Below the pieces are notes generated by a model. The model made no database searches and was not told the origin of the DNA. It saw only the letters and a program-made list of their open reading frames with translations. Of a stretch of 64,000 nucleotides of DNA, positions 155-31,200 are shown in pieces. The DNA comes from Lingula anatina (taxonomy: Eukaryota > Animalia > Brachiopoda). The stretch covers positions 6,324,001 through 6,388,000 of the forward strand of contig JBPQGU010000016.1 in assembly GCA_051362555.1 (NCBI GenBank). Reading direction: 5' to 3'. Both the position numbers and the translations under genes were made by a program. How positions within the stretch are numbered: the stretch's first letter is position 1; the number at the start of each line of letters is the position of its first letter.

Positions 155-157
<3 letters not shown>

Positions 158-174
158 CTTCCTCCATTTTCCAG

Positions 175-3100
175 ACAATGGTCAGGTGTACTGTAACAGG
201 AGCTGGAATGGCGCCACCTGCTGGCCCACAACCCTGGCCGGCCACTGGGCCACCGCCTTCTGTCCGCCCGAAGTGGAGGGAGTTTCGCTGGACGTTACAC
301 GTGAGTTTACGACAATGACCACGTTCAGATTCAAACATCGCACCAGCTGGATCGATCCAACTCTGCGGGGAATTTTTGTCAAAGTGCTTTCAGTGTCATC
401 AGCTTAATTGTCTGACAAGCCTACCTGAGCAGCTTGTTGATTAGTTAATTACCCCTTGGAACTCGAGGAGGCGTGTCACACATTTAAATCGTTTACAGTG
501 ATTGCACTTAGGGTGCTTTCCCAGAGATTTAGATCGATCTAAAGATTAAGTTCTAGATCGACCTAACTTCCTGGGGGTTCACGCTAAATTGCAGTCAGCC
601 GAGCGGACACCATAGTTAATTACCACCTTACAGCGTTTAGTAGGCGGGACAGACGCTTAAGCCGGCCAAGCTGACAGTAATCTAGTGAGACTCCCCACAG
701 GGATAGATCGATCTAAAAATCTATGAAAATGGGGTGTTACACCCCATTTCCATAGATTAGAATGACCTACTTTAGATCGACCTAACTCGCTGGGGGTTCA
801 CGCTAAATAGCTGTCAGCCGGGCGGACACGAAAGTTAATTACCCCCTTACAGCTTGTAATAGGCGGGACGGACATTTAAGTCGGATTATCTGAAAGTAAT
901 CTGGTGAGACTCCCCGCGGGGATAGATCGATCTAAAATCTATGGGAATAGAGCCTTAGAGAGGTGGATCAAATCAGCTAGTGCGATGGGTTTATCTGAAC
1001 GCTCCTAATCACTCATTAAATTCGAATACAATTATATAGATTATATTTCTTCAAACAATGCTTTATTAACAACACAAAACCAAATTGATAGAAAATTAAA
1101 TTTTAAATCCAAGTGAGTTGATAGTAGAAACACGCGATGACGAGGACAGAACTGAAGATTTACCTTGTGAAAAATGACAACAACGTCTTATTTAAGGCAT
1201 GGAAAGGCATATTTCCCTTGTGCAAAATTATTTAAAGTATTTAGGTAAAACAGAGCCTCGGTTCTATGAAGGGCCCTTAATTTTTCACTAATTCCATAAC
1301 ATGCAAACGAGGCTACTGCATCGCTGTAGATTAAACTAGAAACAGGTTATGTCTAGCGCTATCATAGAGAAGGAGGAGGGGATTTTATTTTACTCTTTTA
1401 AGTGTGGGGCTCTATTAAAACAAGTGTGCCTATTTTAGAAGGGGATTTTATTTACACTAGTGTAAAAGGGTGGCTGAGGCTATGATAAAACAGGGACGTG
1501 TAGTTTAGGAGGATATATTATAATGTGCAATGTGATGTTTTTTACGTTTAATTTTAGAAAATGCGACAAGATACTGTCATCCCAATGGAATGTGGAATGA
1601 AAAGTCTAACTACGACAACTGCACGCTGTTATCACACGTTGGAATAGAGAATTTAGAGGTAAATTAAATCTTTTAGATGTAAAGATAATCTTGATTTGTT
1701 GTATTATTGGAAAAAAGACAAATTTACAAGAGTATTTTTCTCCAAAATTAATATATATGTAAAATTTTAAAAAAATTATAAACTTATCAGTAAGAAAAGT
1801 AATTTTTCGCCCAATGTGGGGCTCGAACCCACGACCCTGGGATTAAGAGTCCCATGCTCTACCGACTGAGCTAACCGGGCTGTTGTGCGTCGGTCCCATC
1901 AGGCTTTCGTCCGCGCTCGGATTATGTGAGCTTTAATACTTTAAAGTGGATCTAATTATTCATGCGTATAAGATAAGGATAATGATTGTGTTTGTGGACC
2001 ACCAGCAAAGCTGACCGGTCTTTTGTAGTAACTTAATTGTGATGTTCCTATTCATATAACTGATTTTTTAATCGGAATATTAAATTCTACTTTTAGGAAT
2101 TTGAAATGGTCAACCTGGCAGCAAGGATGATTTATTTTGTGGGGTTTAGCATATCCAGTTTAGCACTCATTTCGGCCTTGCTTATATTCTCATATTTCAG
2201 GTAAGGGTCTTCTTTCTTTCTTTTTTTCTCTCTTTTTTTTCTTTTCTTTGAATTTTTTTTCTTATGAAACATGGCTATCATAAATACACGTGCTTGTTGT
2301 TGAAATGCAATTCCCTGGGAATTTTGAATGCAGCTGATTTAAAATGCGTGTATAACTAGCATGGTTTGTTTAGGACACACTTTTTTTGCTATCACTATTT
2401 TAATATTTTCTATTTTATCAAATGGAGTTCATGAGTATGGTCCAGTTAATGCTTACCAAAATTTTTACTTAATTTACGAATATATTTATTTTATCCGAAA
2501 CAAGTTTACCAAAGCAAAATACCATAGTTCTTTTTAACGACATATCTCCACAAACAGTCTACTAAACGCCCATTTTTCGAAGACAAGTATGGAGTTGACA
2601 ACATCTGAACATAAAAAAGTAGGTTCCCAAAACACATTTCTGAAAAGCGGGAAAGTTACTCGGAAAAAAAAGTTGACAAAAATTGGCTTGGTTTAGATTT
2701 AAACGTAGTCCAAAAATCGTTATCTGTACACAAAACTAAACATAGTGATGCTAACAAGATAGTCAACGGCCAACCTGGGCAAAACCTACATCAGAGTAAA
2801 AATTATCACTAGGTAGTCCAATGAAGTCTAATGTAAGTCGTTAACTACAAGTAACATACGCACGTCCTAATGCTTTGCTGATGCACAAAAAACGATAATT
2901 AAGTTACGTACATGTATTATTTCATCTTTTCAGAAGTCTACACTGTCTCAGGAACACCATCCACTCTCATTTGATGGGTTCGTTTCTTCTCAGGATATTA
3001 GTCTGGGTAATGCTGCATTTCGTCACTCGTGCGGTGTTCTTAGAGCCGGATATTAAAGACGTATCGTCAGGGGTAAGTGTTTGTGTATGTGCGCGTGCCT

Positions 3101-3808
3101 GCTCGTTTGTGTTTATGTGTTTAAGTATGCGCGTGTTTCCGTGCGCGTGTATGTGCGTGTGTGTGCATGTTTATATGTGTTTGCTTGAGCTTTTGTGTGT
3201 GTTTGTTCATGAAAATGTTTGAGTTTGCGGGCGCGTATTTGTTTTTTTTTCTTGTTTGTTTGTTTATGTGCGTGTTTCCGTGTATGTGTGCGTGCGTGTG
3301 TACAAGTGTGTGCATGTTTAAGTGCACGTGTACTTTTAAATGATATATTGCCACAAAGTTCAAGAAAAAGATCTTCTGCTACATGTACCTTATAAAGCGA
3401 ATACTAAAGGCACAGTCAAGCGCAGCTATTACACAAGAAACATGTTGCATAAAATATTTTCAAAAATATTTTTTATCATTTTGATTTTTTTTAGCTGAAC
3501 TGGTTCTGTAAAATCCTCACGGCTCTCTCCCACTACAGTACCATAGCTAACTTCTTCTGGATGTTAATGGAAGGGCTTTACCTTCATATTATGGTGTTCT
3601 GGGTGTACTCTGCCGAAAAGCTCAACATCTGGCTCTTCGCTATCATCGGTTGGGGTAAGTAGAGCCATCTCAGACAAAATGGATATGGTGTTATCTTTCA
3701 ATTATAGATTTGAAATAAAATAAAAAAAAAACTTATTTAACCAATGAATCATGTCGTTTCGATGTTTACATTTTATACACTGTGCAATCGAACAAGACAG
3801 CATGTGCT

Positions 3809-3839
<31 letters not shown>

Positions 3840-6086
3840 TTTTACAGGCTGTCCTTGGTTCTTCGTAATTATATGGGCTATTGCCAAGTATAACAAACAA
3901 AACAGAGAGTAAGTATTAATGCATAGGCTTTATAAATGTGAAGGGATTTTATGTCAAATATAGAAGCACGTATAGTGAAAAGAGACGCTCGGTAGATGCG
4001 AAGTAACGTCTCTGATATTGTTTAATACTGTTGATTTTGAATGAAGATTTCGAATTAAACTGTTTAGAGTAAAAAAAAATTAAAATTTGATTAACTATAC
4101 TTGTACCGGTACTGATTCTTTGATTTTCAGTATACATACATGTACGTATAAACGTACTGTAGAATGATTATCACTTTCATAATTTTGGGGTTTTCAGTTG
4201 TTGGATTACCCTGCACGGCTCGAGTGATGCCTTGGACTTCATAATATATGCTCCAAACTTGACAGTTATAGGGGTAAGTGCTCTCTCTCTCTCTCACGCG
4301 CGCGCGCTCTCTCATGGCCTCTTTACTGCCCCTTTCTATTGCCTTCACTCTGCACCATCATTGTAAGTTCCAGTATCAGAATTAAATATATTTCTCATTT
4401 TTATTCTACTGAATCATGACTAATAAGATTCCCTCAACATCACAGTATGGACTTATTTTGTTCCCCTTCAGGTGAACCTGGTATTTCTGTTTTCCATCAT
4501 TTGGGTGCTTGTCTCCAAAATCAATTCTTCCCAAAACTTTGATGGGGGCCAATACACGTAAGTATCCATGATATCCGTTTTAGAAAATGTGTTTAATACC
4601 GTTGCCTTTTAAAGGAGTCGGTGATTAACTTACATTGTTGAGAAAAAACTCTTCCTTGTTTGCATTTGCCGCACAATAAATACCAACAGAGATAGATTTA
4701 AAGATCCAAATCTATTTTTGACACCGGACTTGCGATTCCTTGTGGCACAGGCTCGCACAAACAAATACTATCCATTCCCTGAATATTTTGCTTTTTCGGA
4801 TAGATCAGTCAAAAAACTGATATCGAAATAATATGTATATACGTGACATGAAAGTAGTACCTTTAATCCTTTCTTGAGAAAAGGGGATTTGCCTTCACTT
4901 ACAACCCACCAAAATTTGTTTTCTATAAAATCATGTATCCCTTTGTCATTGAATCCCATTTAACTTAAACTTTTTTTTCTTTTCTCTTTTAACATATGAG
5001 CAAGTGAACGTAAACTCATTTCTTTTTGCAGGAATAAAACGAGTTTTTTGTCTTACAGTAAAGCTGTCCGAGCGACAACTCTGCTTGTTTTGCTTCTTGG
5101 AGTGGCCTACATTTTCTTCGTCATCCCTCCAAGCAATGACCGGGTGACGAGGATGATTTTCTTTTTCTGCGTGGCTGTTCTGACGTCACTGCAGGTAGAC
5201 CAATCGTTTATTATAATCATTTAAGCGCTGTATTTGAAAAATTTGCTTAGAAAGAAATGCACTTTTAATATAAAATAGGAAAAAACGTCGATTTTTAACC
5301 TAATTTCAATCGCTAAATGTAATTTGAATACTTGGTGCAAAGATATGAAGTGAGGATTATTAATCTTCAATGGTTAGTTTATTCATTGATATCATTATAA
5401 TTAGTCATTTTGTATGTATTCCAGGGGTTGTGCGCAGCGGCATTTTACTGTTTTATGAACGGAGAGGTTGGTAATATTTGCCATTTAAAATTGAAATAGA
5501 TAAAGTCAGCATTTTGTTTCGAAATTAGTCATTGCTCGTAAATGCAAACCATAGTGAATCAAAAATTCTGTTCAACAATTTGATATTGTAAAATTAAAAA
5601 TCTTGATATTCAAATGCCCCCAGAATTTTGGACGGAAATTCATTATTTATTATTTATTAGAATAGAACAATGGCATGTTGGGGTGGTGACCCACATTCCC
5701 CACATACCCCAGCTTGCAGAATAAATCGCAGTGTACATTTTTCTATTTAAAAAAAAAAAAAAAAAAAAAACGGCTTAATGATATTTTGAAAATTGTAGGT
5801 TCAAGCCACAATCAAACGGCGGTTTCATCATTGGCAAGACACAAGGAGCATTAGCCATGGTACGCGCTCAACGCGCGTGACTTCGGTGACAGGGCGTCAG
5901 AGCCCGACCAATGGGAACAGTTGTAGTCATCCGGGTACTCCCAAAGAGGAGGAGTCAAAAGAGATAGACTGTCTTATTCAATGCTCATTGGCCCATCGTG
6001 AAAGCAAGGACAGTAATGACAATGAAAAAGGCAAACTATCAGATAATCTAATGATGGCTCAGCTTAGTAATGGATCAAATGTATGA
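175..6086 (+). CDS. Class B1 (secretin-family) GPCR, CRF/DH44-receptor-like; 5' exons lie upstream of the window
   Basis: GT-AG exons that join in frame: 175-300, 1558-1658, 2097-2200, 2934-3072, 3495-3654, 3848-3908, 4198-4273, 4472-4557, 5059-5194, 5425-5466, 5799-6086(TGA). Motifs: hormone-binding domain CNRSWNGATCWP..CP..RYCHPNGMW..NYDNC; SLHCLRNTIH; NFFWMLMEGLYLH; IIGWGCP; KAVRAT; SLQG..FYCFMNGEV. AATAAA at 6101. Confidence 0.93.
511..954. mobile_element. Two adjacent ~215-225 bp PIF/Harbinger (Tourist-like) MITEs sharing a TTA site
   Basis: 511-736 and 740-954; imperfect TIRs containing TAGATCGATCTA/TAGATCGACCTA; flanked by TTA at 508-510, 737-739 and 955-957; near-identical copies elsewhere in the window. 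Confidence 0.8.
1808..1880 (-). tRNA. tRNA-Lys(CTT), antisense within a GPCR intron
   Basis: Reverse complement is GCCCGGTTAGCTCAGTCGGTAGAGCATGGGACTCTTAATCCCAGGGTCGTGGGTTCGAGCCCCACATTGGGCG: 73 nt, intact A and B boxes, CTT anticodon, TTTT Pol III terminator about 10 nt downstream. Confidence 0.97.
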
Positions 6087-11075: not shown

Positions 11076-13430
11076 TTAAACAAAATTCCTGGGACATGAG
11101 GGTAGGTTAATTTCCCCAAATACATTAAGTTCATACATACATGAAAATAACATAAAAACTACATATACAAACAGACATATAATACCAAATTTTTTATTCA
11201 ATTTCCATCCATTGACCGCCACGGCTACAAGAAGAAATATGACAGTTGCCAATAGGGAAATGGACGTAAACACAATGGTTTTGCTACTGATGTCCACCGG
11301 GGCGCCAATCCGGAAACACTCTATCATCCATGGTAGTCCTAGGCACAACAGGATGTCGAAGATATTGCTCCCGACGGAATTTGAGATTGCCATATCCCCA
11401 AAACCTAAAAAGCACAATGAATGTATGTAATAATCTACCAAAGATTAATTTTGTGCACCACCAAAATCTCAGTTACAGTACTGGGTCCCTTCCAAACAGT
11501 TTCCGAAAATTTCATAAAAAATCCGTCTAAAGCAGTTTCCATAAATGTTCCTTACAGACAGACAAATGGAACTAAACACATATTTACCTAATTTATATGT
11601 AAGGCAATAATAATTAAATAAATGAATAACTTACCATCTCTAGCCACAAACAAACTGGACATGGCATCAGGTACACTTGTGCCAGCAGCAAGAATTGTCA
11701 ACCCCATCACTGCATCAGGGATGTTCCAGGTGTCACCTATAAGGAGACAAGTTCATCATTTAATTAAGCAAGCCAACAGTTTTTAAGGCTGCTTTCAGTA
11801 TATATGTTATCGTACTAGCAGGATCGATCTATCTCAGTGAGGATTCTGGCTAAGGTGCAGTCAATGTTATCAGCTTTATGTCACACTCCATCGTAATTCA
11901 AAGTACTTGGGTAAAGTCGGGGAAAACTTTCGGGTCCATGACATTGTTCATGTTGCCCTGCAAGGGGGCATGCCAGGCAAGTTGGCCGATTTCATTGACT
12001 GCACCTTAGCAAGAATCCCTGCTGATAGATCCTGCTATCACCATAACTTCTATCCTGAACATAGCCTAAGATCAAACAATAGAAACAATGTAGAAGAAAT
12101 AAAGAATTAAAGATTCCAAAGCTTCTTAAATCCATATATGCACTTTTAAAGTTTCAATAATAAATTGTAACATTTTCTTCCATGTGCATCAGATTTAGCA
12201 GTCTTTTAACTAAGGGCTCATTCCCAATATAACTATCGGTCTACACAGATTTATCCAATACTGCAGGTGCTCTCACTCAATACAATCAAATTAACAGATT
12301 AACACGCCTTCACATTATAGGAGTATGTTGGAAACAAGGGGAGGTGTGGTAATATTCTACACCTATTGCATTCAGTATGAGTCTCTATATGGAGCTGGAT
12401 TAATTGATGTAAACCAATAGTTTCAATGGGTATGAGCCCTGTAATATCTGACTATTGCTGCATTGTTTAATGACTTTTTTTGCCTTATCACATTGTAAAC
12501 AATTGTTAAAACTTAAGATAAATGCAGTTTTTAAACTTTTATTTAAATAAAAATTAATGTTAGATAAATGCAGTTCTTAAACTTTTATTTAAATAAAAAT
12601 TAACTTGAATTTCACTTAATAACTTAAAATTTACCCATTATAGCAACCATCCACACCATCACGTAGGAGAAACCAGATATCCACACCACTGACATGATGA
12701 ACGAGAGCAGAAAAAGTCTTTTCCAGACTCCAGCTCTGCGAGAATCAGGAACCGTCAAGAAGAGCAAGGCCGACACAGGCAACATTGCGACCCAGTAGAA
12801 ACGTTTTAGAAACGATTCTGGGATGGTCCATGGGGATTCAAAGTCCTCGTCATCTGTGTGGATAAAACAAAAAGAAGTTCTTAAGGTAAGAAAATATTCT
12901 ATGTTTTGCATAAGATGATCTACAAATCTTTAAATTGGTATAAAACATCTACACACGTATCATTGAACACAGACACATGCTCTTCAAGATGTGCCTTACC
13001 TGTTTAATTAGCAAAAAAACTGTCCATTCCACAACTGTTATCTTTGCTTATTTATTGCCAACAAATGGAATATTTCATGGTAATGACTTGGTATTTCCAA
13101 TGGGGAAAATTGTGCATTTTATATAGATATTGCATTATTTAAAATAATAAATTCTTAAAGTGAGAACATTCCCATTGAGTGGTAGGAACAAAATTAAGAA
13201 AGTCGCCCTATAGCTCTATTCTATACAGTAAAATCACCATAAAATTCCCAAATAATTCACTGGAAAAATTGATAAGAAAAGATGGGGGCATTACTGTTCT
13301 TAAAGTAATATAAAAATAATAAGATAAATTCAGCCTTAGGGTTTCTATGTGGTATTACAAATTAAAATATTCTGTGCCATAATAAGATCATCCATGACAG
13401 AGATCAAACATGACTTTAGCAGCATTTTTA

Positions 13431-13478: not shown

Positions 13479-16204
13479 TGCGGGGGGGGGGGGGGGGGGG
13501 GGGAGTACCAGGGGAATACCAGCTAAATTGTTACCTTCACTTTCTGTGGCAGAATTCTCTCCTCCAAAGTGGGTTTCTGTTTCTCCACTTTTGAAGCTGA
13601 CACTGGATTTTTCTGCATCTTCTCCTAAAAGTGGGGCGGATTCTTCTCCTGCGTGCCCTTTTAAGTTACCAGGAAAATGTCCACGTCTATGTTGAAATTC
13701 ATGAACCTGAATGTAGTATATATTAACAATATAGTAACTATGATGATTTTGATATGCATCTTTTTCGATTTCTGATGGAAACACCACTTGGAAAAGAATA
13801 TAAGTGGTATAAAAAAAAAAATGAAATGCACAACCTACCTTTGCAATTGCCCAGCTACTAACTCTGGGGTTGAAGTACATAAATGTCACATATAGAATGT
13901 ACATTGTAAACATTATCAGTGCTTCATACCTGAAATGTGAAATTAAATAAATATATACTTCTACAAATATGTTATAACGGGGGTGATAATGCACCTCACC
14001 ATCAGCAAGAGATTCAATTTGGATGACCATCTTGACAGTATTATATAAAATTGTAATGGAATTGATCAAATTATTGGTCATTTTTTTAAAATTTAAAACC
14101 TGTGAAGCATTTTGGTCTGTAGCTCTTTGACATATTAGAAAAAGGTCACTGTGGTTTCATATCAACAAGATAGTCTCATGGGAACATTTCACTGCATTAG
14201 TGGTGAAAGCCTGATGGCCTCAAATTGTCCTTGGTTGTGGCAAATGCATGTTAGCATTAACTGCCTCGTTTTTAAATGAAATGGGACAAGTAGAATATGA
14301 CTTATGTAAAGTTTTTCAAACGCAACAAATGTGGTGAAAATTGTGACTTATTTTTCAATTAACCATTTCAATTTAAAAATGAATATCGTTAGCCATTTGA
14401 CATAATATTTAGAATCAAGCTGACCTATCATCAGATTGTTTCAGAACAAAATCATGTATAATATCATCTTTTTGTTTTCAATAATGATCATTTATTTATT
14501 TTTTTTAAATTAATTTATTTCTTGCACTCACCAGTGAACTTCCCCATCTTGTATCACTACTGTTAACACTATAACAGACAATGCATAATAGGAACAATCT
14601 CTAAACAGAGGCCACCAAGTGAGCGGAATCACCTTAGGAAAGAATAAATAGAAAATTGGATCAGCTGAAAAAAGAAAATAATTTTATAAAACAAAAGAAA
14701 TTTACTCCAAAAACTGGTCTAAACATTCACACTAAAATTTTGGTCTTCTTCAGTTCATGGTTAATACAGAATTATATCCCTCTTCCATATGAAAACTGGC
14801 CTGGACCATGAGATAAATATTTCTTGTGATAAACATACACAATATTTTATTTAACCGGAGTACTTCTGATTTTAACTTTAAAAGAAGACTTAGACCCCAT
14901 TCCCAAACCTAGATCAATCTAGCAGGATCAACACATCTCAGAAGGGATTCTCATAAAATTGCATTCAGATTAAGTGGCTTAGATGCCTGGCATGAAGCTG
15001 TTAAACAATAGTTAATTTACCTCCTAACAACTTCAGTAGGCGTGCCAGACATCAGAGCTGCTTAAGCTGAATGTGATTTAGTGAACAGTGTTTGCATATA
15101 ACAGGTTGTCTTTGCATTTAAGGGGCAAAAATGACCAGTTCCAATAAATGTGTTATATGTGCGATCTACATGTACTGTATATCGGTATAAAAAAAGTTAA
15201 TACCATGCCAGCAAAAAGGGAACACATAGCAACAATGATGAGTATGTTGAAGACTGCACTTCCCACAATGGTTCCAAGACCGACGTCACTCTGTGCAATA
15301 AATACACCTATAGAAACAAACCAATAACATGCAGGAAGTCAGGGGGCAGCACTGCAGTGAAAAGAGAACCCAAGGCCCCATTCCCATAAATACATGTACA
15401 ATCGATCTTGTGGATTGACCCAACTCTGCAGAAAATATCACTAACTGCAATGAGCTTAACTGAAAGACATCCCTCCTCCAGACATTAAGTAATTACAGAA
15501 AAGTAGGTAAATAAATTATATGTGTATGTTGAAAACAAGAGGAGGCATGTCATTCAGTTAAGCTGATTGCACTTAGCAAGAGTCCTCCCAGAGTTGGGCA
15601 TTCCACCTTGACTGGTAGTGTTTATGGGAATGGGGTCAAATGGGATTCACATTAAATAGCCTGAAATGTGATAAATGATAGTCTTTAAAAAAATTGATTT
15701 CTGATCACAACAAGACTTTCTGTCTGAAGTTATAAGATTTGAGCCACATAGTCAAGGATGAAGTCCGCAGTGGCAAGATAATCTAAAATGACATTAAAAA
15801 TCTCACAAATTTGAAATTTTGATCAGACTTACGGATTGGAAAAAATTCAATTTTTTATTACCTGATTCCTAATCTACTGGTCAATTGCCACAGACCATGG
15901 GTTAATCATTAAAATATCACACTAATTTTGCAAGTAATAACTTTGTGCAAGGAATGTTAGCAAATTAGATGGTTAATCAATGCTATAGCATGCAGTATAA
16001 GTAGTAATTAAGGCAAAGGGAGCAAATAAAATTGATTTCAATTGCATTTTTCGATCCTTTTAATATATGCCCAGTCCCAGCTCTAGCTCTTTCAAAATTC
16101 ATTCCAAAATGATTTACTGGTAATACTTTTATACTATCTATTGTCAAAAACAACTTTGTTTTGGGGCTAGAAGAGTGGCTCTTTTGCCTTTACCACTGAT
16201 TAGT

Positions 16205-16241
<37 letters not shown>

Positions 16242-17377
16242 AAAAAATGAAATAACACCTGCGCAAAAGCATGAACACATAAAAACAAATATTTCTACAA
16301 TTTAAGCACCTTCCAATCAGTTAGCACTGAGCAAATGCCTACGATCACCAGAATGTTGAACACGGCAGAGCCTACCACTGTTCCTAGACCAACATCACTC
16401 TTTGATACCATTACACCTGCAATAATCATACTAAAAAGCTGCATCCACATCACGGCAAGCTATAACTACAATTAATTAATTAATTAATTAATTAAAAAGT
16501 AACTATGAAACTGTGATCACAAATGGAGAAGCTTTGACTCAAAAATCTATTCATAAATTAAGCCACATTCACAGCTTTGACTTGAAAAAATAACTATAAA
16601 GGAGTGTACACAACAACAAAGGTTGAGACTAATATGGTTGGGTAAGCATCTAACAAAGCGCAGGTTCTAATGTTTAATTGCAAAAATTAAAACAGATTAT
16701 GGATTTGATTTGTACAGATGGAAAATATATAAAGCAAGTATAACATAGCCAAAAAAATCAACGAAGACAGATTTTAGCACTGGAAGAATTAAAATTTATA
16801 GATATTCACACAAAGCCAATGCATGTTTAGATGTATTTGTTATGTCAAAATAGTTTAAATTTATGAGTTGTATGAGAAGGCAGAATACTGCAGTGGCAAA
16901 ATACTGTAAACTACTGAGATAACAAGAAAAAATTCAATCTTGCACTAGATTTTACGTTGAAACCAAGATCCAGTTTTAGATTTAATGTTCTCATTATCTC
17001 AGTATAATATAACTGGATGAATCAAAATATTCACTTCAAAATGTAACACTGTTTATATGTCATCACCATGGGAAGAGCAAGTGCTATAATATTAAAAATT
17101 TCTCAGCATCAGATTTGGTGAAAAAATCATTTAGCTTAAAAACTAAAATAACACCATCAGAAGTGTCTCAGGTTACCTATTATTGATGTGGCTAGTTCAG
17201 GAGCAGAACTTCCAGCGGCCATAAAGGTTGCCCCAGCGACATCTGGTGACAGACCTAGCCCTAGAAATATATAGTTTAGTATCTTTTAAATTAGTTAATA
17301 ATATACAACTACTTGAAATGTTTAGTATCTTAAGACATTTTTCCTTATTTCTTCAGTTACTATGACTGTATAATTAA

Positions 17378-17424: not shown

Positions 17425-20134
17425 AACTTAAAAAATACTATTCATATATATTTAGGAATCAAATTAAAGGGAATAAAAAATCAGTTTGATCATAATTAGA
17501 AACATAAAAAAATAAGAGCAGACTAAACAATAAAAAAACGTAAATATAAAAATATACTTACTTGTACAGATATGTTCTAAAGAAGGCACAAAATAATCAT
17601 CACAGACAATAGCTAATGCACTGAACATGTACAAAGCTCCTAGACAGTGAAGAAAAATGAGGCCATAGCGCTGTTTTTGCTCCAGGGTGAAGAGATCAGG
17701 GGGAAATTCCTCCACTGAACGCTTTGTGCAATTCTGTGGCTCCTCTGAATGAATTAAAAAAAATATATATAAAATTTGCAAAGTGATACATTTGATAATT
17801 TAATTCCCAGTGTATCCCACCTTATCTAACAGCCTTTTGGGCCTTTTTCTTTTCTTGTTATTTATATTTATACTTGTTTATCTCTCTGTATTATTATGAT
17901 ATTATTATTATTTTTTTGAAATTTTTATACACTCAGTCAAATCATTAATATTTTAAACATTGCAAAATAATCGTAGATGGCACACTGGCAAAGACAAGAT
18001 ATGTATGTAATCTTCCTGATCAGAGAAGGGCAGACAATAATGGCATTTTTGATCACAAACCAAAAAGAAAGTTTAGATATGGATGCCAAAATAAGATCTA
18101 TAATGATTGGAATCTCTGGGAATAAATATCTTTGCAGAGATTCCTTGAGTACATAAGTACACATATGAAATGAGATTTGTTGAGTCAGTTTGACTTATGC
18201 CCCTATTTCACACAGACCACGAATCCCACGAATGGCCAGGAATTGACAAATTTCATGAACTGATTACGATTCAACCACGAATCCTGAAATTTGAGGTATT
18301 CAGAACATGTTCATCGGTGGGCTAACAAATCTGCTGACTAAATATGGCCACCTTACTTAAAAGCAGCAGCATCTAATTCCGTGACGGCCTTCCTGCTAAT
18401 TCATTGCTGTAGGGGCCTTGCAATTAAACATCAGAGCTGATATCTAATCTGTTTAATGGCAGGGAGATCATCAGAGGATTAAGCAGCGCTGCTTTTGAGC
18501 ATGGTCGACCAAATTTAGTCAGTGGATCAGTTAGGCCGCATTCACATCGAGTTGAGCCATGGCTCTACAAAGCCACGACCTAAATATGGCGGACGTACAG
18601 GAAAGGAAAAACGCCTAATCTTTTAATAGTCTCTTACAGAAAGTGTGTTACATGCTGATAAATCTATGCATAAAGTGCTCCATACAGTGTAAATATACAT
18701 GTACATGTTAAAGCCACTGACTTTGATATTTATATCTTAGTCATCCCATTTCTTATTTATTTAGTGAAAGGAAGAGGTCGGTGTATTGGGTATATAATGT
18801 CCAATACCCTTGACCCATCATCTCCGTCTTTATCAACTCTAGAAGTTCAGTATGACAATTAAGTTAATTGCTGATACTTGTATATGGCAGGGTTCATACG
18901 ACAACATCAATAACACTTTCAAGGACTTTCAATGACTTTGAAGCTCTCATTCAAGTACTTTTCAAGGACTTTGAACGCAAATTACTGTCATTTATAAGTG
19001 TTCGTACCAAAGAAAGAAAGACATTATTTCAAATATTAAATTTGTATTTTAACATATTCATGATGAAACCTGAAAACAATAAATTTTAAAGTAATTGTAA
19101 GTGATTTCTAAAAAAAAGTATTCCCTTTCTGCAAGTTATTGTTAATATTCAGGTTAAAAACTACAAGATTTAAAATAATATTTTGACAAATTGCCAAGTG
19201 ATCAAATCAGAGTACATTTTAAGGACATAATTGCGATTAGCACGAAAATTCATGCGTTAGCACTCCTATTGACGATTCTGATACTTACTGGCTGTGCACA
19301 GGCAGTACATATCAAAATCGTCAATAGGAGTGCTAAATTGCGAAATACAAGCCCTTTTCAAGTCTTAATTATAGCAATTAATTTTAAGCACTTTTTAAGG
19401 CCACAAGCTGAATTCAAGGGGCAGGGATATATTGATTGCAGTAATATTATGAACCCTGTCTACAGAGTACATGTGAATCAACAACTGCCTTGCATGGGCA
19501 CAGGGATGTGAGAGGTAGAGGTCATTTCTTTTGATTCTTTGAAATAAAACTTATATAATATTGTAAGTAATAGCTTAAATAAAATAATCAATAAATAATA
19601 CAGGTGTTATATAACAAAATTAATCTGATTCACCCCTTTCCCAAAGATGAAATGACACACACTCTGCACTTATAGCGTATCCGTACATAACATGCTTAAT
19701 GATATGAATTTTATAAAAGTTAAGATATACATGTATTATAAAAAGAAGGAGAAGAAGAAACACTGAACTGTGCTTCTAATTAATGCTCTGAAAACATGTC
19801 TGACTCATTTCATAAAACGCTTGCAACAAACATACCAGTACACACGCGATCAACAAAACACCTGTCTCTAAGCTCTCATGTGACTACCGGTATGTATATA
19901 TAATACAAAACGTCTACCTGTCGCTGACAGTTCAATAGCTCTCTTAACGCGACTTCCTTCATTGTGCTGCGTCCTCCCATCGACCGCCGAAACCTCAACA
20001 CTCCGTCCAGCTGGCTTTAGTATCTGTACCACGATCGTAGCACAAAGCATCAGTCCTGCTAGCACGAGGAATATAACTTCTCGACGTTTCCTTCGTTGTC
20101 GCCAAACATTTCTTGTACGAGCTTCTTTCCCCAT
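11076..20134 (-). CDS. K+-dependent Na+/Ca2+ exchanger (SLC24/NCKX family)
   Basis: Exons (-): 20134-19918, 17744-17562, 17260-17177, [16416-16310 or 15307-15204], 14632-14532, 13929-13839, 13706-13535, 12853-12635, 11736-11635, 11404-11076. Alpha-1 [29 protein letters not shown]; alpha-2 [28 protein letters not shown], including the Asp associated with K+ dependence; EFPPDLFT and [11 protein letters not shown] motifs. Confidence 0.95.
15204..15307 (-). CDS. NCKX alternative exon 4b (alpha-1 re-entry/TM3)
   Basis: AG..GT bounded, 104 nt, phase 1 to 0; encodes (G)[34 protein letters not shown]. Confidence 0.9.
16310..16416 (-). CDS. NCKX alternative exon 4a (alpha-1 re-entry/TM3)
   Basis: AG..GT bounded, 107 nt, phase 1 to 0; encodes (G)[35 protein letters not shown]. 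Confidence 0.85.
18319..18537. mobile_element. Palindromic MITE nested in an older MITE-like relic (from ~18200)
   Basis: Inverted arms GGGCTAACAAATCTGCTGACTAAAT.. / ..ATTTAGTCAGTGGATCAGTTAGGCC. Confidence 0.55.
18888..19458. mobile_element. hAT-like MITE with an internal palindromic insertion (~19255-19340)
   Basis: Termini CAGGGTTCATA..TATGAACCCTG; internal hairpin TTAGCACTCCTATTGACGATT / AATCGTCAATAGGAGTGCTAA. TSD not recognisable. Confidence 0.6.
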
Positions 20135-21903: not shown

Positions 21904-23246
21904 TTATAGTTAGGCCTAATTGGAAGTGGCAAATGGGCGGGCAGTTTAATGCAAGATGACGTTAAATAAATAAATTAAACTGACAGGCGCAAAACACAAC
22001 AATACACTTTTAGAGCACAAACTCCTTTTCTGTTGTTTTATTTACAATCTAACTTGCTTATGCGCAAATCGTCAATTTTGTTGCTTTGTAAATTGGGTGT
22101 CACACACACACACGAACGCACACAAACCTAAGAATTTAAAAGGGTTATTTAAAGTGTAAGGTTTAGATACGTATTTCAGTAAACATACATGTATGATATT
22201 AATTGGCAATATACCCTACTACGTTTTGCTATGAACAAAAGGCAGAGAAAATATTTTTTCTATGATGCCGGCAGTTTAATTTTTCCACGTGATTTTGTTA
22301 AAGTTGTCCTAAATATGATGTACTAGTATTCAATAAGTTCAGTACCTGTTTACCAGTAGTGTTATCACACTAGAACATCAATTTATCATTAATAAAACCC
22401 TTGATCTTAATCAATTAAAATTTGTCCGTATATATGTTGTCTTCTTGAGAAGATAATATTCTATCCTTTTTCAAACGAGGCAAAAATTAAAAAAGTCATA
22501 TGTATTTAAAGGTAACAGGATCAATTACAAGTGTTTAACACATGAAAAGTCATGTTTACGTTGTCGTCAGTGGCATGGCGGCTTGTTAATCTTGTAGATT
22601 TTGATCATCACTCCATTCCTGATCAATAATCTTTTTGATACAGTGTTTTTTAATCTCTTCACTTATTAATTAATTTATTTATTGGTCTATTTTTTTAATT
22701 AATTAATTAATTATTTATTTATTTATCCGTGAGTAGTCAGCAGGCAGATCTTATCTGTGCTTACTTCATCACGTTACTGTCATGTGACAGTATCCTGAAA
22801 TTTTAACTAGGTCAAGGCAGCTCCGCACTCCTACAGTCACAGGCTAATAAAACATATTCTTCTTACTTCCTTTATTATATTAAAGGAAAGTTTTTCTTGA
22901 TATGCCCCCATTTTAATTTTAAAGTGTACATCAGTTTTATGGTCATGCTTTTAATTGTTTAATCAAAGGAAAAAAGAAACACTATCTGTTTAAAGTGCGG
23001 GCCGTTAAATCGTCGGCTTTATCTCTGTTGAATAGAATACACGCTACTTCATCTGGAACAATATTAACTCCAGCAGACACAGTTTGTTTGCTTGACCTCT
23101 ATATCTCACAGAGTCTGTCAGTGACGAACTGTGCCTCGCTGGTTAATCCCGGGCAAATGCACCGTAATTTGTAAAACATCCACGCTTTCCGAGACCTGTC
23201 TGTATTAATACCAGCGACATACTGTAAGTGCACTGAAACTTTGAGG

Positions 23247-25214
23247 ATGCAGAGAGTCAACTTGCCAGGGAGTGATTTGAATGTGTCCCCTATCTGCCTG
23301 GGCACCTGGCAGTTCAATGGCGGCCAGGTTGGCGGGGACAAAACTTGGGGAGCGATGTCCGTGGAGGTAAAGTGCGGCGTGTCTTAATGGTTAAAACAAT
23401 GCAGTTAAAATAATTTTGATTTTTAAAGTCAGGCCCGTAGCCAGCAGTTTCAAAAGGGGGGTTCTTTTTCTGAAAAAGTGGACCTTTTCCCATAAAAACT
23501 TCATGTTCCTAGATCAAATTTTACCCAGAGTGGACCTTTTCCCAGCAAAAGGGGTGGTTCTTTCGAACCCCCCGAACCCCCCCCTGGCTATGGGCCTGAA
23601 AGTTGAGGTTTAATGTGAAATGTGCGCAGCCAAATGTGCGTACCCCGGCCGATCTAGTTAGATCGATCTAAATCTCTGGGAATGCACTCTAAAATCATCA
23701 TAAACTAGTAGGATCGAACTATCTCTGCAGTAATTCTCCCTACAATGCAGTCAGTGTGATCAGCCTATTTGTCTCATGTACACACCCCCTTGAGAGACTA
23801 GGGGCAATTACAGTGTATTATTAGTGCACAAATGCAGAGCAACCACCTCTCCCCAGGGCAGTAGCAATAGTCTGAAGGTTCAGTAATCGAAAGGTTCATT
23901 GGTCCTAATGTTCACTATAGAACTTTCGGACCGGGGCCGTAGCAATAGTCCGAAGGTTCAATAGTCCAAAGGTTCATTGGTCCGAATGTTCACTACAGAA
24001 CCTTCGGACAAATGAACCCTTGATTAAAAAATCGATGAAAATGTTACCGTTTTTCGGACCAATGGACCTTCGGACCAATGAACCTTCAGACTATTGAGAC
24101 GCCCCCTTCGGACCAATGAACCGTTGATTAAAAAACCGATGAAAATGTTACCATTTTCAGACCAGTTAACCCTCGGACTATCAAGATGCCTCCTCCCCTA
24201 CTCTAAAGAATTAATTTTCCCCAAGCTTCTCAAGGGGGGCATGCCAGCCAATAAAGCTGATTACACTGAGTGGATTTAAGCAAGAATCCCCACAGAGGTA
24301 GATCAGTCCTGCTTGTATGATAACTTTTATTAAAAATGTAGACAAGTGTGGGAAGGCCAAGTATTACACCCCATTTCCATAGATTAGATCAACCTACTTT
24401 AGATCGACCTAACTCCCTGGGGGTTCACGCTAAATAGCTGTCAGCCGGGCGGAGACGAAAGTTAATTACACCCTTACAGCTTGTAGTAGGCGGGACGGAC
24501 ATTTAAGTCGGATTATCTGAAAGTAATCTAGTGAGACTCCCCGCGGGGATAGATCGATCTAAAATCTATGGGAATAGAGCCTTAGATGCGGGGTGGGGGT
24601 GGGATGCATGTATTAGCCATTTTGTCTCACTTTGCATGGGACTAGAAAACAATAGATGTAAATGATTTGGATAATATTTCCACTGTAATATAATCGTCAG
24701 TGATTGTAGAAAATTCTTGATACTGCCTTGATTTGCTTTTTTAATCATTTCTTGGGGAGGAGGGGAAGGGGATGAGGGGGAGAGGGTACCTCAGAGGCTA
24801 GGACAGGTGTCCTCTTCTCATAATCTGTCAAATTTTAATTGATCTACCATTGAACACACATACATTTTATTGTTTACAAATTTATACATATGATACATGT
24901 TTTAATTAAACAAATTGTGTAAATATAAATTTTAATATTTTACAGGAATCTAAGAAAATATGGGACAAAGCACTGGAGACTGGCATAAACTTTATAGACA
25001 CTGCTGAGGTGAGAGTGATAATGGTCAGACTGTCAGTTTGGGTAAATCCATATAGAAAAATTTATGATTTTGTTTCTTTTTATAAATTATTAAATCACTA
25101 GCTGTTTTTTGGTCGGTATTATCATCTTGATTAAAAAGAATTGAGCACCAGTACTTACATCAGCAGCTTTTGGCTCCCTCCCCAGTCCCTGCATGTGCAC
25201 ACACACATGCAGTG

Positions 25215-25262
<48 letters not shown>

Positions 25263-28200
25263 ACAGTGTCTGTGTGTCTCTCTCACGCAATCATATAACA
25301 AAGTTATTTATTTATTTCTGTATTCTATGTTACAGGCATATCTGAACTCCCATTCTGTTCTGGGGCAGATATTGGACCCCAGTAAGAGAAGAGATATTGT
25401 ACTAGCCTCCAAGGTTGGCAATGGAAAAGGCGCAAATAGTGCGCCATACACTGCTGAAGACATAGACCAAGCCGTTACGACCAGTCTAGAAAAGTTGAAG
25501 ACGGATTATATTGATCTGTACCAGGTAAGTCGTCACGAGGCACATGTGAATGAATGCATGATTTTGATAACATACTTGTGCATGTTGTTGATCATAATGG
25601 TTATTATGATAAACAAGGCAGCAAAGCTGTCAAATGTACAGACCAAAAGCAGAAAATAAAAAGACCCAGAGAGTGCAGACCACAACCAAGGAAACTTACT
25701 TATTATTATTAGTAATTATGCATTAATTATACATACATTAATTATACATATAGAATAAAGTAATTTGTGAGATAACAGTATCACACTGTCATCCTTGCAA
25801 TGTACACAGTATATCACCAAGCTATTCAAGGCATATATTGCCAGAGAGCATTATTTGAGATACATAGTGTAAGTGCCAGCATTTCACAGAAAAATCATGT
25901 GTAATGTGTGAGATAGCACTCTGTCATCTGAGTGATATTGTGAGTTATGGGAGAACAGCCCAAGTGTCAGCTAGTGGTTTAAGGCAAATATTGTGACAGG
26001 CTGGCAGTGAATTTATGGCAATTCTGAGAGAAAGTACTTGCCTTTCGCCAAAAAATTATTTTAAAACCAAATAAAAGGCAAAGAAAGATCAAAAATATGT
26101 TTACCTATGAAGCATCACACATTACCCTTCATCAGATTGTCTTGATTACTGTACATGACTTACTCCCTCTTGTGAGCTTTTCAGAAAGAGTTTGATTTAA
26201 AAAAACATTTTATCATACAATTATTATTGGGTAGAGCTGAAATGCGCAATACGACGCAATACAGCACAATACACTGGGAAAAACGAAAGCGAGAGTGAGT
26301 AAATACTAGAAAAGGTCTGTAACATTAAAACAGGTTAATATGAAAGAGAAGTATTGCTGGATAAAAAATATCTTTTGCCAAACTTCAGCTGTTGGTACCA
26401 TCAGCCTTATACCTATAAAATGGTCGGGTCTTTCGCCATATTGAAAACCCTAGTGGAGCTATCAGCATCTATTGGTGTTAGTTTCAGAGTTTCTTTGTGA
26501 CTTTATCAGCTTAATAAATTAATGTTGATTTTATTTTTGTGTACTTATCGTTTTTTTTTTTTTTTTTTTTCATATTTTTATGTTTATATTTATCATAAGA
26601 AGCAGCTGATCAGACTGGATTTTAAATGAATCCATTCAATGCGTAAATTTCAATTAACAGTGGATTGATTTTCTCTCTTTCATTTGTGTGAAAATATATA
26701 ATATGATGAACATTTTAAATGGGCTGTTGTATGACTGTTTGCATTAATAAATTTTACAATTTAAGATAAACATGGAGAAAATGATACCAGCAGTCTTGGG
26801 TAATCTAATTTTTTTATTAGTTTAATTCAAATAACTTTAATAAGCCCATATTAACAGAAGACTCATGTACATGAATGCTAAATTTACTTCAAATTTAAGT
26901 GTAAGTTTTATGTGTATTTATAATTTTTTCTCAGGTAATTTCTGCTTTTTTAATTTTTGTTTTGGTGAAGGCTCATGCATATATTTAAGATGATTATTAT
27001 CATTCTTTTTATTTTCAGTTTGCACGAGGGTTTAATTTGTGGCATTTGCTTTTCTAAGCTCTTTAAAATTCAGCAGTACTCAGTACATGGATGTTGTATT
27101 TCAATATTTTAAAAATGCATTGGAGAGGATTCAGATATCAAATTTGATATTCAAAATTTCTCCCACAATGTATAAACCTATTAATGAACATATTAATTTT
27201 TGTCACAAACTCATCATTTACATCATTCATATTTCACTCACTACAAAAATTAAATTTAAGAGCAGCAATGATGAATGATGCATGTGCGCAATGTACATCA
27301 GGGTAGCAACTAGTTTTCTCAAATATCTCAGGGGTATGATTATTTTATATTATTATTTTCTCACTATTTATTCCTTTAATTGTACCACCAGCGTTAGCGC
27401 TGGCGGTACACATGGTTTCGGTCCCGTCCGGATCGTTCCGCCGGCTCCGCCGGCTCCGCCGGCTCCGTTGGCTCCGCCGGACGGCTACCGTTACCGCTTC
27501 TCCTCCTAGATGGTAAGGGCCCCCGTACCCATCTCATGGATTTAGGTCACCTATAATCTCAACTCGTTCCACGTAAAATTTGGGCTTTGTCGGTATTGGG
27601 GTCTGGGTGTGGCACTCATTGCAATGCACCCTTGTCTAAAAATGGCAAAATTAAATGCTAATTATCTACCCTACGGAAGGAGTTATGGGAAAAATTTCTA
27701 TAGACGGCTTTCCAAAAGTCATATGTGTAGATTTCAAATATACCCTTGGATTTGACCTTTGACCTCTACTTCAAGGTCAAATGGGCCAAAATTTTCAAAA
27801 AAATGAAATTTTTTACGAAAAAAAATTTTTTTGCCCTGTTATTCAGACACCACAGAGACTTAACCAATAATATTATTGGAAAGTGTTACCCTTCAGGTCA
27901 TCTTTCATCTCCATGAATTTGGGGTCAATCGGTGCATTTTCACGGGAGTAGCGGCCATAAGATACCGAAACTGAAAACTGTCTCTAATTCGGGAACCGTT
28001 AATGCTAGAGACCCATTCTTTTTTGCATTTTGTAGAGCATGTAAAGCCCAACACTGGAGGTGGTCTCGGTTTTTTTGTATTCCATACGGTTTTCGAGTTA
28101 CACTGTATCAAAAAGTACATATTGGTGGTAAAAGCAAAATGTGCAGTACGGTAATGGATAATAAATTTTGAACTCTGAAAAAATAAAACATAAGGCTTGG

Positions 28201-31200
28201 CAAAGCAGACAACTTGTGTTCAAAAATGACATTATTTCATCAAATTTGAACTTCTGAAACTTCAGAGCACCTCCTATTTCAAGAATTTTGACCAAAATGA
28301 CATTTTCTTTATTTTAATTAATTTTTTCTGTACGAAATTTAAGGCACATTATGGTAACTCCAAAATTATAACATCTAGTCCCTTATATCTCCAAAACTGG
28401 CAGAGATAGGTCCATAGTTACTATTGAAGTTGAATAGGAAGTCATACACTGGCAATCTTACTATGACCTTGAAATTGACCTTTGACCTACTTTTCACCAT
28501 GAACTGAACTTTGCAAATTTTTCTTCCCTTTTATCTCCAAAACTGGCAGAGATAGGTCCATAGTTACTATTGAACTTGAATAGGAAGTCATATACTGGCA
28601 ATCTAAATGTGACCTTAAAATTGACCTTTGACCTACTTTACACCATGAACTGAATTTTGCAAATTTTGCTTTCCTTTTATCTCCAAAACTGGCAGAGATA
28701 GGTCCGTAGTTACTATTGAACTTGAATAGGAAGTCATATACTGGCAATCTATATGTGACATTAAAATTGACCTTTGACCTACTTTTCACCATGAACTGAA
28801 TTTTGCAAATTTTGCTTTCCTTTTATCTCCAAAACTGGCTGAGATAGGTCCATAGTTACTATTGAACTTGAATAGGAAGTCATATACTGGCAATCTAAAT
28901 GTGACCTTGAAATTGACCTTTGACCTACTTTTCACCATAAACTGAACTTTGCAAAATTTGCTTCCCTTTTATCTCCAAAACTGGCAGAGATAGGTCCATA
29001 GTTACTATTGAACTTGAATAGGAAGTCATATACTGGCAATCTAAATGTGACCTTTAAATTGACCTTTGTCCTACTTTTCACCATAAACTGAACTTTGCAA
29101 ATTTTGCTTCCCTTTTATCTCCAAAACTGGCAGAGATAGGTCCATAGTTACTATTGAACTTGAATAGGAAGTCATATACTGGCAATCTAAATGTGACCTT
29201 GAAATTGACCTTTGACCTACTTTTCACCATGAACTGAACTTTGCAAACTTTTCTTCCCTTTTATCTCCAAAACTGGCTGAGATAGGTCCATAGTTACTAT
29301 TGAACTTGAATAGGAAGTCATATACTGGCAATCTAAATGTGACCTTGAAATTGACCTTTGACCTACTTTTCACCATAAACTGAACTTTGCAAAATTTGCT
29401 TCCCTTTTATCTCCAAAACTGGCAGAGATAGGTCCATAGTTACTATTGAACTTGAATAGGAAGTCATATACTGGCAATCTAAATGTGACCTTAAAATTGA
29501 CCTTTGTCCTACTTTTCACCATAAACTGAACTTTGCAAATTTTGCTTCCCTTTTATCTCCAAAACTGGCAGAGATAGGTCCATAGTTACTATTGAACTTG
29601 AATAGGAAGTCATATACTGGCAATCTAAATGTGACCTTGAAATTGACCTTTGACCTACTTTTCACCATGAACTGAACTTTGCAAACTTTTCTTCCCTTTT
29701 ATCTCCAAAACTGGCTGAGATAGGTCCATAGTTACTATTGAACTTGAATAGGAAGTCATATACTGGCAATCTAAATGTGACCTTGAAATTGACCTTTGAC
29801 CTACTTTTCACCATGAACTAAATTTTACAAATTTTGCTTCCCTTTTATCTCCAAAACTGGCTGAGATAGGTCCATAGTTACTATTGAAGTTGAATAGGAA
29901 GTCCTATACTGGCAATCTAAGTGTGACCTTGAAATTGACCTTTGACCTACTTTTTATCATGAACTGAACTCTGTTTATTTCTTTCTCTTTTAACTTCAAA
30001 CTTGACAGAGATAGGTCCATAGTTACTCTTGAACTTGAATAGGAAGTCATATACTGGCAATTTACTGTGACCTTGAAATTGACCCTTGACCTACCTTACG
30101 AAGAACTTAAAATTTGATTGTACCAAGGAGTTATAACAGAAGGAGATTACACGCAAGCCTTTCTATTGTCCGATGTCTGTTACGGTGGGCGGAGCTAGCT
30201 ACGGGGGGCCTCCTGTCTCAAGGTTTCGTCTGCGTCGCTCTCCTCAGCTTGGAGATTGATTTTATATGCGTTATTTCGCGTTAGAATTCGAGATCAGTAA
30301 TGTCAAAGCGCCGCTGTATGCTGACGATTTTTTTCACAGGTAATTATTTGGACGATGTGCTGGAAGGGAACGATATCATAGAAAGCGATTATAAGGTGGT
30401 GACTGAGGATGGTCGCCATGAGCTTTTTTTAGTCGGTGATAGATGGCTTTTTTATGGCACAACCCGGTGAAAAATCACCAAGGAGAAGTCAAAAGAAAAC
30501 GTCCCAACTGTGGTTTGTGAAAATGACGTTCAAGTGAACGTCTGTCCTCACTGCCAAAGGACATAATATTAATACATTAACGTTTGGACCCTCCTGCCCT
30601 TGGGTCCCATGAACATATACATTGTGACAGTGCCTACGCTTTGTGTCTGGTTTTAAATTTCTTAAAGTATTTTATCTCTCACTCGGTATAATTTTATTTT
30701 TAATATTATAATGCATTTAATTAAAATTTTAATCCAAGGTTGAGGCAATGCCACGACACGTCAGTTTACTGAATACTCGTTATAAATTTCTTTATCTTGG
30801 AAATTTCCCTTTTTTTCAGGATTATTTGACACGTACTAACACTGTTCATATTTGTCGGTAAACAAGTGCACAGTGCTATACATTAAGAATAATTTTTATT
30901 CATTCAGAAATATATTTATGTACAAAATATATCAGAAATTTTAGTATTCACTGAGCTCTTTAAAGTGAAACAAATAAAGATGAGAATATTGAATTTCAAA
31001 CTATTATTTACTATATTAACTTAAAATATCTTTTAAGTCAACTCTATACTCAAGCACTCTATACTCATGAAAGTAGCATCTGTGAGTAAAACCATTTTAT
31101 TATATCAATAGAAGAACAAAAACAAAAATTTTACACATAAGCAGTAATAAATGAAGTCATAAGAATGATTAAGTTGCTACAGTTTTCCAGTTTTATGCAG

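What the first reader, a model, noticed from the sequence alone, without database searches (positions are those of the whole stretch)
15204..16416. Mutually exclusive duplicated exon in the NCKX alpha-1 ion-binding repeat
Seen: two paralogous exons (16416-16310, 107 nt; 15307-15204, 104 nt), both stop-free with canonical splice sites and phase 1 to 0. The protein core SDVGLGT(V/I)VGSAVFNIL is kept while synonymous positions differ widely. Including both or neither shifts the frame. Flanks differ (VMVSK vs [15 protein letters not shown] vs AMCSLFAGM). Established: this segment is part of the alpha-1 repeat that forms the transport site; the NCKX splicing I know of concerns mainly the large cytosolic loop. 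Inference: isoforms with different ion affinity or kinetics, possibly tissue-specific (neurons vs calcifying epithelium).
Basis: partly seen in the sequence, partly recalled or inferred. Interest (0 to 1): 0.7.

Follow-up and report, generated by a model that had tools for sequence, protein, structure and literature searches.

The report
Swappable ion-path exon in Lingula NCKX
A calcium-exporting transporter gene (NCKX) of the lamp shell Lingula carries two old, intact copies of the exon for one helix of its ion pathway, likely used one at a time with the unannotated copy as the rarer form; the predicted ion-gripping residues are the same in both, so the swap likely tunes transport speed or gating rather than which ions are bound.

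Summary
Observation confirmed. The gene is a Lingula SLC24/NCKX3-4-5-like exchanger; the spliced form with exon 4b matches RefSeq XP_013382398.1 at 528 of 533 residues. Exons 4a and 4b have AG/GT ends and the same phases; either alone gives a full frame, both or neither a premature stop. The duplication is old and under purifying selection (second codon positions 28/30 identical, third 9/30; flanking introns unrelated). Exon 3-4b joints appear in 2 of the 4 runs laid over 4b. Exon 4a is absent from both RefSeq models; one run holds two reads whose ends match spliced 3-4a-5 use, below the tool's three-read listing limit. So 4a is likely a minor isoform, on thin RNA evidence. [quoted passage not shown] Two UGCAUG (RBFOX) sites between the exons suggest a tissue switch, untested. 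No SLC24 case of this kind turned up in my searches, but the mechanism is well known. The scan did not find this exon pair before on other DNA, but noted many other pairs in this genome.

The parts
19918..20134 (-). Coding exon 1 (start codon, N-terminal hydrophobic segment)
   Evidence: tblastn of P0006, 100%; splice sites
17562..17744 (-). Exon 2 (TM1)
   Evidence: exon 2-3 junction seen as a 3-read loose end in X2
17177..17260 (-). Exon 3, shared; TM2 with GSSAPE and the four TM2 ion ligands (A148, S151, S152, E155)
   Evidence: RNA depth
16310..16416 (-). Exon 4a, alternative copy, not in either RefSeq model; end of TM2, TM2-3 loop, TM3, start of the TM3-4 linker (35 codons plus 2 nt)
   Evidence: two X1 reads spanning 16307-16414 with no depth in the flanking introns
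16199..16237 (-). (UG)16 tract starting 73 nt after the 4a donor, followed by ACUAAU; candidate CELF-type and QKI/STAR-type sites (motif labels recalled; may be a plain microsatellite)
15989..15994 (-). UGCAUG, about 315 nt downstream of the 4a donor; candidate RBFOX site
15328..15333 (-). UGCAUG, starting 26 nt upstream of exon 4b, between a branch-point-like CUGAC (15342) and the pyrimidine tract; candidate RBFOX repressor site
15204..15307 (-). Exon 4b, family-typical copy used in RefSeq XP_013382398.1 and XP_013387873.1 (34 codons plus 2 nt)
   Evidence: exon 3-4b joint in X1 (2 reads) and X7 (3 reads)
14532..14632 (-). Exon 5, shared (TM4)
   Evidence: RNA depth
13839..13929 (-). Exon 6 (TM5)
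13535..13706 (-). Exon 7 (cytosolic loop)
12635..12853 (-). Exon 8
11635..11736 (-). Exon 9 (alpha-2 GTSVPD, D414)
11076..11404 (-). Last coding exon (alpha-2 TM8 with N438 and D441; stop codon)

Best explanation
This is an old tandem duplication of the TM3-encoding exon of a Lingula NCKX3/4/5-like exchanger gene, kept under purifying selection and likely spliced one copy at a time, with 4b as the default and 4a as a likely minor, probably cell-type-restricted form that is predicted to change transport rate or gating without changing the ion ligands. Shown: the two exons, their phases, the frame logic, the selection signal and the exon 3-4b joint. Inferred from read ends: 3-4a-5 splicing. Inferred mechanism of exclusion: the 1002-nt intron between the copies is too long for steric exclusion and all sites are ordinary GT-AG, so choice is likely set by splicing regulators, with double inclusion or skipping removed by nonsense-mediated decay. 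The most likely regulator is RBFOX: one UGCAUG sits on the 4b acceptor region (would repress 4b) and one downstream of 4a (would favour 4a), so 4a would be chosen in RBFOX-rich cells such as neurons or muscle (about 35% likely). Inferred effect on the protein: 4a replaces the near-invariant Phe164 by Met at the outer end of TM2, and rebuilds the inner end of TM3 and the TM3-4 linker with one extra residue, an Asp, a Trp and a Lys; these would shift helix packing at the mouths of the ion path and so turnover or apparent affinity (about 50% likely).
For: Frames. Selection: pS 0.77 (saturated) against pN 0.20; in a neutral-decay simulation an exon drifting for 0.3 substitutions per site kept splice sites, frame and at most 2 second-position changes in 0.3% of 20,000 runs, and in 0 of 20,000 at 0.5. 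RNA: joint 15305-17175 in X1 (2 reads) and X7 (3 reads). In X1, two sense-oriented reads cover 3+36+56+33 bases from 16307 to 16414 and nothing in the flanking introns. The 16414 end copies the tool's handling of the listed 3-4b joint (shared GT given to exon 3); an unjoined read would run on to 16416-16418. These reads passed the 92% filter, so a paralogue is unlikely to be their source. RNA animals differ from the window at 6 exon-3 sites, all synonymous, so 4a use is seen in a different haplotype. Ligand mapping. Position in the model: H153-166, loop, H170-193, loop 194-201. Phe at this column in 130 of 135 distinct homologous segments; linker length as in 4b in 128 of 135 and as in 4a in 2 of 135. 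The only 2 TGCATG on the sense strand of the 9-kb coding span lie in the 4a-4b intron. Precedent for RBFOX/UGCAUG and CELF control of mutually exclusive exons: unc-32 (PMC3585155, abstract and section 18).
Against: No joint row for 3-4a or 4a-5 was listed; the case rests on what is probably one fragment in 1 of 7 runs. X2, X3, X4, X5 and X8 showed no read on 4a; X7's one read on 4a runs unspliced into the downstream intron. Both Lingula RefSeq models use 4b only, and a search with the 4a frame found no 4a-bearing protein of 96 aa or more (2 weak bacterial-type hits among 70 candidates). A recent loss of function is not excluded by the simulation (26-62% pass at 0.05-0.1 substitutions per site). 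The departures from the family at Phe164 and the linker could be relaxation rather than adaptation. Two TGCATG in 9 kb is below the window's average rate (0.42 per kb), the clustering was noticed after the fact, and PMC3585155 says the motif alone does not determine tissue specificity; in unc-32 the site lies downstream of the second exon, not between the two.
Confidence: 0.75

Rival explanations
1. Exon 4a was once functional but is now a recently relaxed, decaying copy that is spliced only as low-level noise.
For: One likely fragment in 7 runs; absent from RefSeq models and protein collections; family-atypical residues at both ends; donor AAG|gtgctt and a pyrimidine-poor acceptor look weak; simulation cannot exclude loss within the last 0.1 substitutions per site.
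Against: No stop, frameshift or lost splice dinucleotide; both ends appear correctly spliced in X1; the 4b donor is as far from the other donors' pattern as the 4a donor; TM3 hydrophobicity is kept (mean 2.25 against 2.20); gene coverage is so low (at most 5 listed joint reads) that a cell-type-restricted form would look like this.
Confidence: 0.15
2. Both isoforms are made and both transport alike; the pair is kept for regulation of abundance (switching failures feed nonsense-mediated decay) or for trafficking or partner binding through the cytoplasmic TM3-4 linker, not for transport kinetics.
For: All predicted ion ligands are identical; 6 of the 14 differences cluster at the inner end of TM3 and the linker, including a new Asp, Trp and Lys; both wrong combinations give early stops.
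Against: A near-invariant TM2 Phe is also changed; simple redundancy would not readily explain long retention of two diverged copies (inference).
Confidence: 0.25
3. Assembly artefact: two alleles or two paralogous genes merged in tandem.
For: Lingula is polymorphic and RefSeq holds a second partial model of this gene on another contig.
Against: The exons are only 66% identical with saturated synonymous sites, the introns are unrelated, no other exon is doubled, and one run appears to join both copies to the same exon 3.
Confidence: 0.02

Closest known systems
Tandem exon duplication-derived mutually exclusive exons in transporters, e.g. SLC12A1 (NKCC2) coding exons 4a/b/c, SLC7A2, SLC25A3 (PMC8373072, passages and supplement search)
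   Same: Homologous internal exons, one used per transcript, replacing part of the membrane transport core; that paper reports enrichment of such exons in transporters and channels in Drosophila. That the NKCC2 variants differ in ion affinity is recalled, not from a call.
   Different: Different protein family; the human catalogue has 0 SLC24 entries. Here no functional difference is shown and the second exon is unannotated.
[quoted passage not shown]
   Same: Same Ca2+/cation antiporter superfamily, same splicing type.
   Different: A/B lie in the cytosolic regulatory domain CBD2 and change Ca2+-coordinating residues; the Lingula pair lies in the membrane alpha-1 repeat, in a protein with no CBD, and leaves the ligands unchanged.
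Known NCKX (SLC24) splicing (PMC9820825, passages)
   Same: Same gene family, alternative transcripts.
   Different: Described splicing affects the 5' UTR and the central cytoplasmic loop; the review says no experiments have addressed functional consequences. None of the passages describes a swap in an alpha repeat.
C. elegans unc-32 exons 7a/7b, regulated by RBFOX (ASD-1, FOX-1) and CELF (UNC-75) (PMC3585155, abstract and section 18)
   Same: Mutually exclusive exons in an ion-transport gene, with UGCAUG and UG-rich intronic elements and neuron-specific choice of the upstream exon.
   Different: There the UGCAUG is in the intron after the second exon and the roles are proven; here the sites lie between the exons and are only motifs.

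Membership tests
SLC24 / NCKX | Two Na_Ca_ex (PF01699) repeats with alpha-1 G(G/S)SAPE and alpha-2 GTS(I/V)PD signatures | tested here: met
   GSSAPE at 150-155, GTSVPD at 409-414; signatures as given in PMC8366772 passages; fold matches NCLX, NCX_Mj and NCX1
SLC24 / NCKX | Three pocket carboxylates (E54, D213, D240 in NCX_Mj numbering) | tested here: met
   E155, D414, D441; human NCX1 has Asn at the D441 column; feature from PMC8366772
SLC24 / NCKX | No cytosolic CBD domains | tested here: met
   Only PF01699 on P0006; short, largely unstructured loop in the model
SLC24 / NCKX | K+-dependent 4Na+:1Ca2+,1K+ exchange | not testable with these tools
   needs flux or current measurements
Tandem-duplicated mutually exclusive exons | Adjacent homologous exons, same phases, each giving a full frame alone | tested here: met
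Tandem-duplicated mutually exclusive exons | Purifying selection on both copies | tested here: met
   pairwise between the copies only, so very recent relaxation of 4a is not excluded
Tandem-duplicated mutually exclusive exons | Each copy spliced to the same flanking exons in mRNA | tested here: inconclusive
   3-4b joint listed in 2 of the 4 runs laid over 4b; 3-4a and 4a-5 inferred from two reads in X1; no joint row for 4b-5, 3-4a or 4a-5
Tandem-duplicated mutually exclusive exons | Copies not used together or both skipped | tested here: inconclusive
   no 4a-4b or 3-5 joint listed in the 4 runs, but coverage is too low to exclude rare forms; both give premature stops
Tandem-duplicated mutually exclusive exons | Tissue- or stage-regulated switching | not testable with these tools
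   tissues of the runs not given; too few reads

The most novel reading that the evidence does not exclude
A brachiopod has evolved a splice switch in the ion-translocating alpha-1 repeat of a K+-dependent Na+/Ca2+ exchanger, driven by RBFOX-type regulators, giving excitable cells and epithelia exchangers of different turnover or K+/Ca2+ dependence from one gene with an unchanged ligand set: a natural experiment on which non-ligand residues set exchanger kinetics.
Probability: 0.25. Interest if true: 0.62.

Novelty: new member of a known kind. Interest (0 to 1): 0.42.

Why it matters
Exchangers of this superfamily differ nearly 10,000-fold in rate with largely shared ion ligands (PMC9820601 abstract as listed; PMC8366772 passages), and no NCKX chain turned up in the PDB sequence or fold searches. 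Two natural versions of TM3 in an otherwise identical NCKX would test directly how second-shell and linker residues tune transport. It also corrects the Lingula annotation and extends alternative splicing in SLC24 genes from the cytosolic loop into the transport core. The interest is limited by the familiar mechanism, the thin RNA support for 4a, the lack of any shown functional difference and the apparent restriction to one lineage.

Tried and rejected
No whole genome was held, so other SLC24 paralogues of this animal and orthologous loci could not be read as DNA. The run search listed no indexed RNA holder; nine same-species runs were offered, 7 laid (X6 and X9 not), 6-26% of each read. An ancient shared alternative exon: short and full-length unnamed proteins ending the segment in LCDK/LCDE score slightly closer to 4a than to 4b, but they belong to a separate exchanger (P0206 and its cluster) that groups with vertebrate NCKX3, away from this gene; rejected as orthologues of 4a. 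Proteins with two copies of the segment (P0160, P0007) repeat much longer stretches identically, and P0321 is a run-on into a second exchanger-like sequence: not exon pairs. A 33-column tree of the exon peptides was unresolved and did not join 4a with 4b; the two share four uncommon states (Leu10, non-Phe23, Val25, Ser29) of which none of 39 others has more than two, which only hints at a lineage-specific duplication. Competing RNA pairings (docking/selector type): no convincing long-range arm linking the exons; the strong inverted repeats are local hairpins of repeat elements. Minor-spliceosome incompatibility: donors are ordinary GT types (consensus recalled). X3's four exon-3 reads at 82% likeness come from the CG1090-like paralogue P0062 and were not counted. 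Literature: searches listed no report of a duplicated alpha-repeat exon in an SLC24 gene (listings and abstracts seen; passages only for the papers cited). The Drosophila mutually exclusive exome paper was not held, so its prediction tables are unchecked; one search gave no usable NCKX2 mutagenesis data, so second-shell effects are not mapped residue by residue. The 4a isoform was not folded.

Full report
Observation. The full gene has ten coding positions from 20134 to 11076. With 4b the product is 533 aa and matches Lingula anatina XP_013382398.1 (P0006) at 528 of 533 residues; with 4a it is 534 aa; with both or neither it stops in exon 5, more than 650 nt before the last junction. No other exon is doubled in the window.

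Age and selection. Over 30 aligned codons the copies are identical at 22, 28 and 9 first, second and third positions; pS is 0.77 (saturated) and pN 0.20; Fisher P is about 6e-7, and 10 of 13 four-fold sites differ. The surrounding introns are no more alike than shuffles. A copy left to drift for 0.3 substitutions per site would keep splice sites, frame and so few second-position changes in 0.3% of 20,000 simulations; at 0.05-0.1 the figure is 26-62%. So 4a was constrained for most of its history, and only a recent loss remains open. An allelic or assembly duplication is excluded by the same numbers.

RNA. Seven of nine same-species runs were laid, 6-26% of each. The gene is weakly covered. The exon 3-4b joint is listed for X1 (2 reads) and X7 (3 reads), not for X4 or X5; X2, X3 and X8 were laid only over exons 3 and 4a. 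Exon 4a has reads in 2 of 7 runs. In X7 one read runs from 4a into the downstream intron, unspliced. In X1 two sense-oriented reads cover 16307-16414 with no depth in the introns beyond. All three X1 reads on exon 3 run to 17175 (105 bases); two are the 4b joints, and the 4a coverage stops at 16414, exactly as the tool cuts the listed 4b joint two bases short, so the third is most simply a 3-4a joint. The other end overhangs by the GTG that the intron shares with the starts of exons 5 and 4b; X1's depth at the 4b start (30 bases) is accounted for by the two joint reads, leaving exon 5 as the likely partner. This is inference from depth; the tool lists joints only from three reads, and the two reads are probably one fragment. 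Both RefSeq models of the gene use 4b, and no 4a-bearing protein was found. The RNA animals differ from the window at six exon-3 sites, all synonymous.

What the swap changes. The profile alignment to NCX_Mj puts A47, T50, S51 and E54 on A148, S151, S152 and E155, all in shared exon 3, and N73, S77 and N81 on T174, S178 and N182. TM3 holds two of the twelve ligands, S77 and N81 (PMC4753433 passages), and both, with T174, are the same in 4a and 4b. The 13 substitutions and one extra residue fall as four at the end of TM2 and the TM2-3 loop, four conservative ones within TM3, and six at the end of TM3 and the TM3-4 linker (model helices H153-166 and H170-193, mean pLDDT 81). As the TM1-2 loop is cytoplasmic in NCX1 (PMC10550945 passages), the first cluster would face outside and the last inside (inference). 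Exon 4b is family-typical; 4a departs at Phe164 (Phe in 130 of 135 distinct homologous segments) and in linker length (2 of 135 as long) while keeping TM3 hydrophobicity. The likely effect is on packing and gating at the mouths of the pathway, or on trafficking, not on ion selectivity. Nothing here measures it.

How one exon is chosen. The 1002-nt spacer rules out steric exclusion (threshold recalled), the sites are GT-AG, and no convincing long-range pairing was found. Both alternative donors have pyrimidines at +4 and +5, whereas all eight constitutive donors have a purine at +4. The only two TGCATG on the sense strand of the coding span lie between the exons, one about 315 nt after 4a and one starting 26 nt before 4b, and a (UG)16 tract with ACUAAU follows 4a. 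By the RBFOX position rule (recalled: upstream represses, downstream activates) this would favour 4a where RBFOX is active, with decay removing errors. The precedent is unc-32 (PMC3585155, abstract and section 18), which also warns that the motif alone does not fix tissue specificity. The count is small and noticed after the fact, so this is a hypothesis.

Distribution. The gene sits in a lophotrochozoan NCKX3/4/5-like clade (support 99) with nemertean and molluscan genes, apart from the CG1090 and Nckx30C/NCKX1-2 clades (FastTree, 39 proteins). In 16 of 16 groups of isoforms or close database entries from molluscs, a nemertean, chelicerates, crustaceans and insects (mostly paralogous genes; one entry lacked the segment) there is one version of this stretch. 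The exon tree was unresolved. The duplication is therefore probably lineage-restricted, but only annotations were seen, and 4a itself is missing from Lingula's annotation.

Comparison with what is known. Tandem-duplicated mutually exclusive exons are a known class, reported as enriched in transporters and channels (PMC8373072 passages); the human catalogue's supplement lists SLC8A1 and SLC8A3 but no SLC24. NCX exons A/B act in CBD2 (PMC9820601 passages); NCKX splicing is described for the 5' UTR and cytosolic loop (PMC9820825 passages). Searches listed no alpha-repeat exon swap in SLC24; the Drosophila prediction tables were not available. Earlier scan notes show no match to this locus but many other exon pairs in this genome (72 notes fit the words, 8 shown; unchecked), which makes one more pair less surprising.

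Verdict. A real, old, selected exon pair in the transport core of a Lingula NCKX; likely mutually exclusive with 4a minor (0.75). New for SLC24 as far as searched, ordinary as a mechanism, function unmeasured. Interest 0.42.

Noticed in passing
window 15376-15635: A 260-nt inverted-repeat element (region fold z = -7.8) ends about 34 nt before the branch-point-like site of exon 4b; its arms and a related element at about 14890-15084 attract many RNA reads from other loci, so they are dispersed MITE-like repeats that could affect 4b recognition.
   Followed up: partly
P0271 (XP_013387873.1): A second, partial RefSeq model (260 aa, on a 140.8-kb contig) appears by eye identical to the first 260 residues of XP_013382398.1; probably a second haplotype assembled apart.
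   Followed up: partly
window 17177-17260 and 14532-14632: RNA reads of the same species label differ from the window at many sites (six in the 84-nt exon 3, all synonymous; two replacements in exon 5), pointing to high polymorphism or cryptic species.
   Followed up: partly
window 1-6083, + strand: Exon-like frames of a class B (secretin-type) G-protein-coupled receptor ending near 6083, tail to tail with the NCKX gene (family label recalled).
   Followed up: no
window about 23175-30467, + strand: Exon-like frames resembling an aldo-keto reductase, head to head with the NCKX gene (label recalled).
   Followed up: no
window about 42197-46959, - strand: Fragmented long frames resembling reverse transcriptase/RNase H and a tyrosine recombinase, as in DIRS/Ngaro retrotransposons (labels recalled).
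   Followed up: no
window 37524-37844 and 38175-38651, - strand: Two near-identical open frames about 800 nt apart, next to long transposon-like frames at 35817-37227.
   Followed up: no
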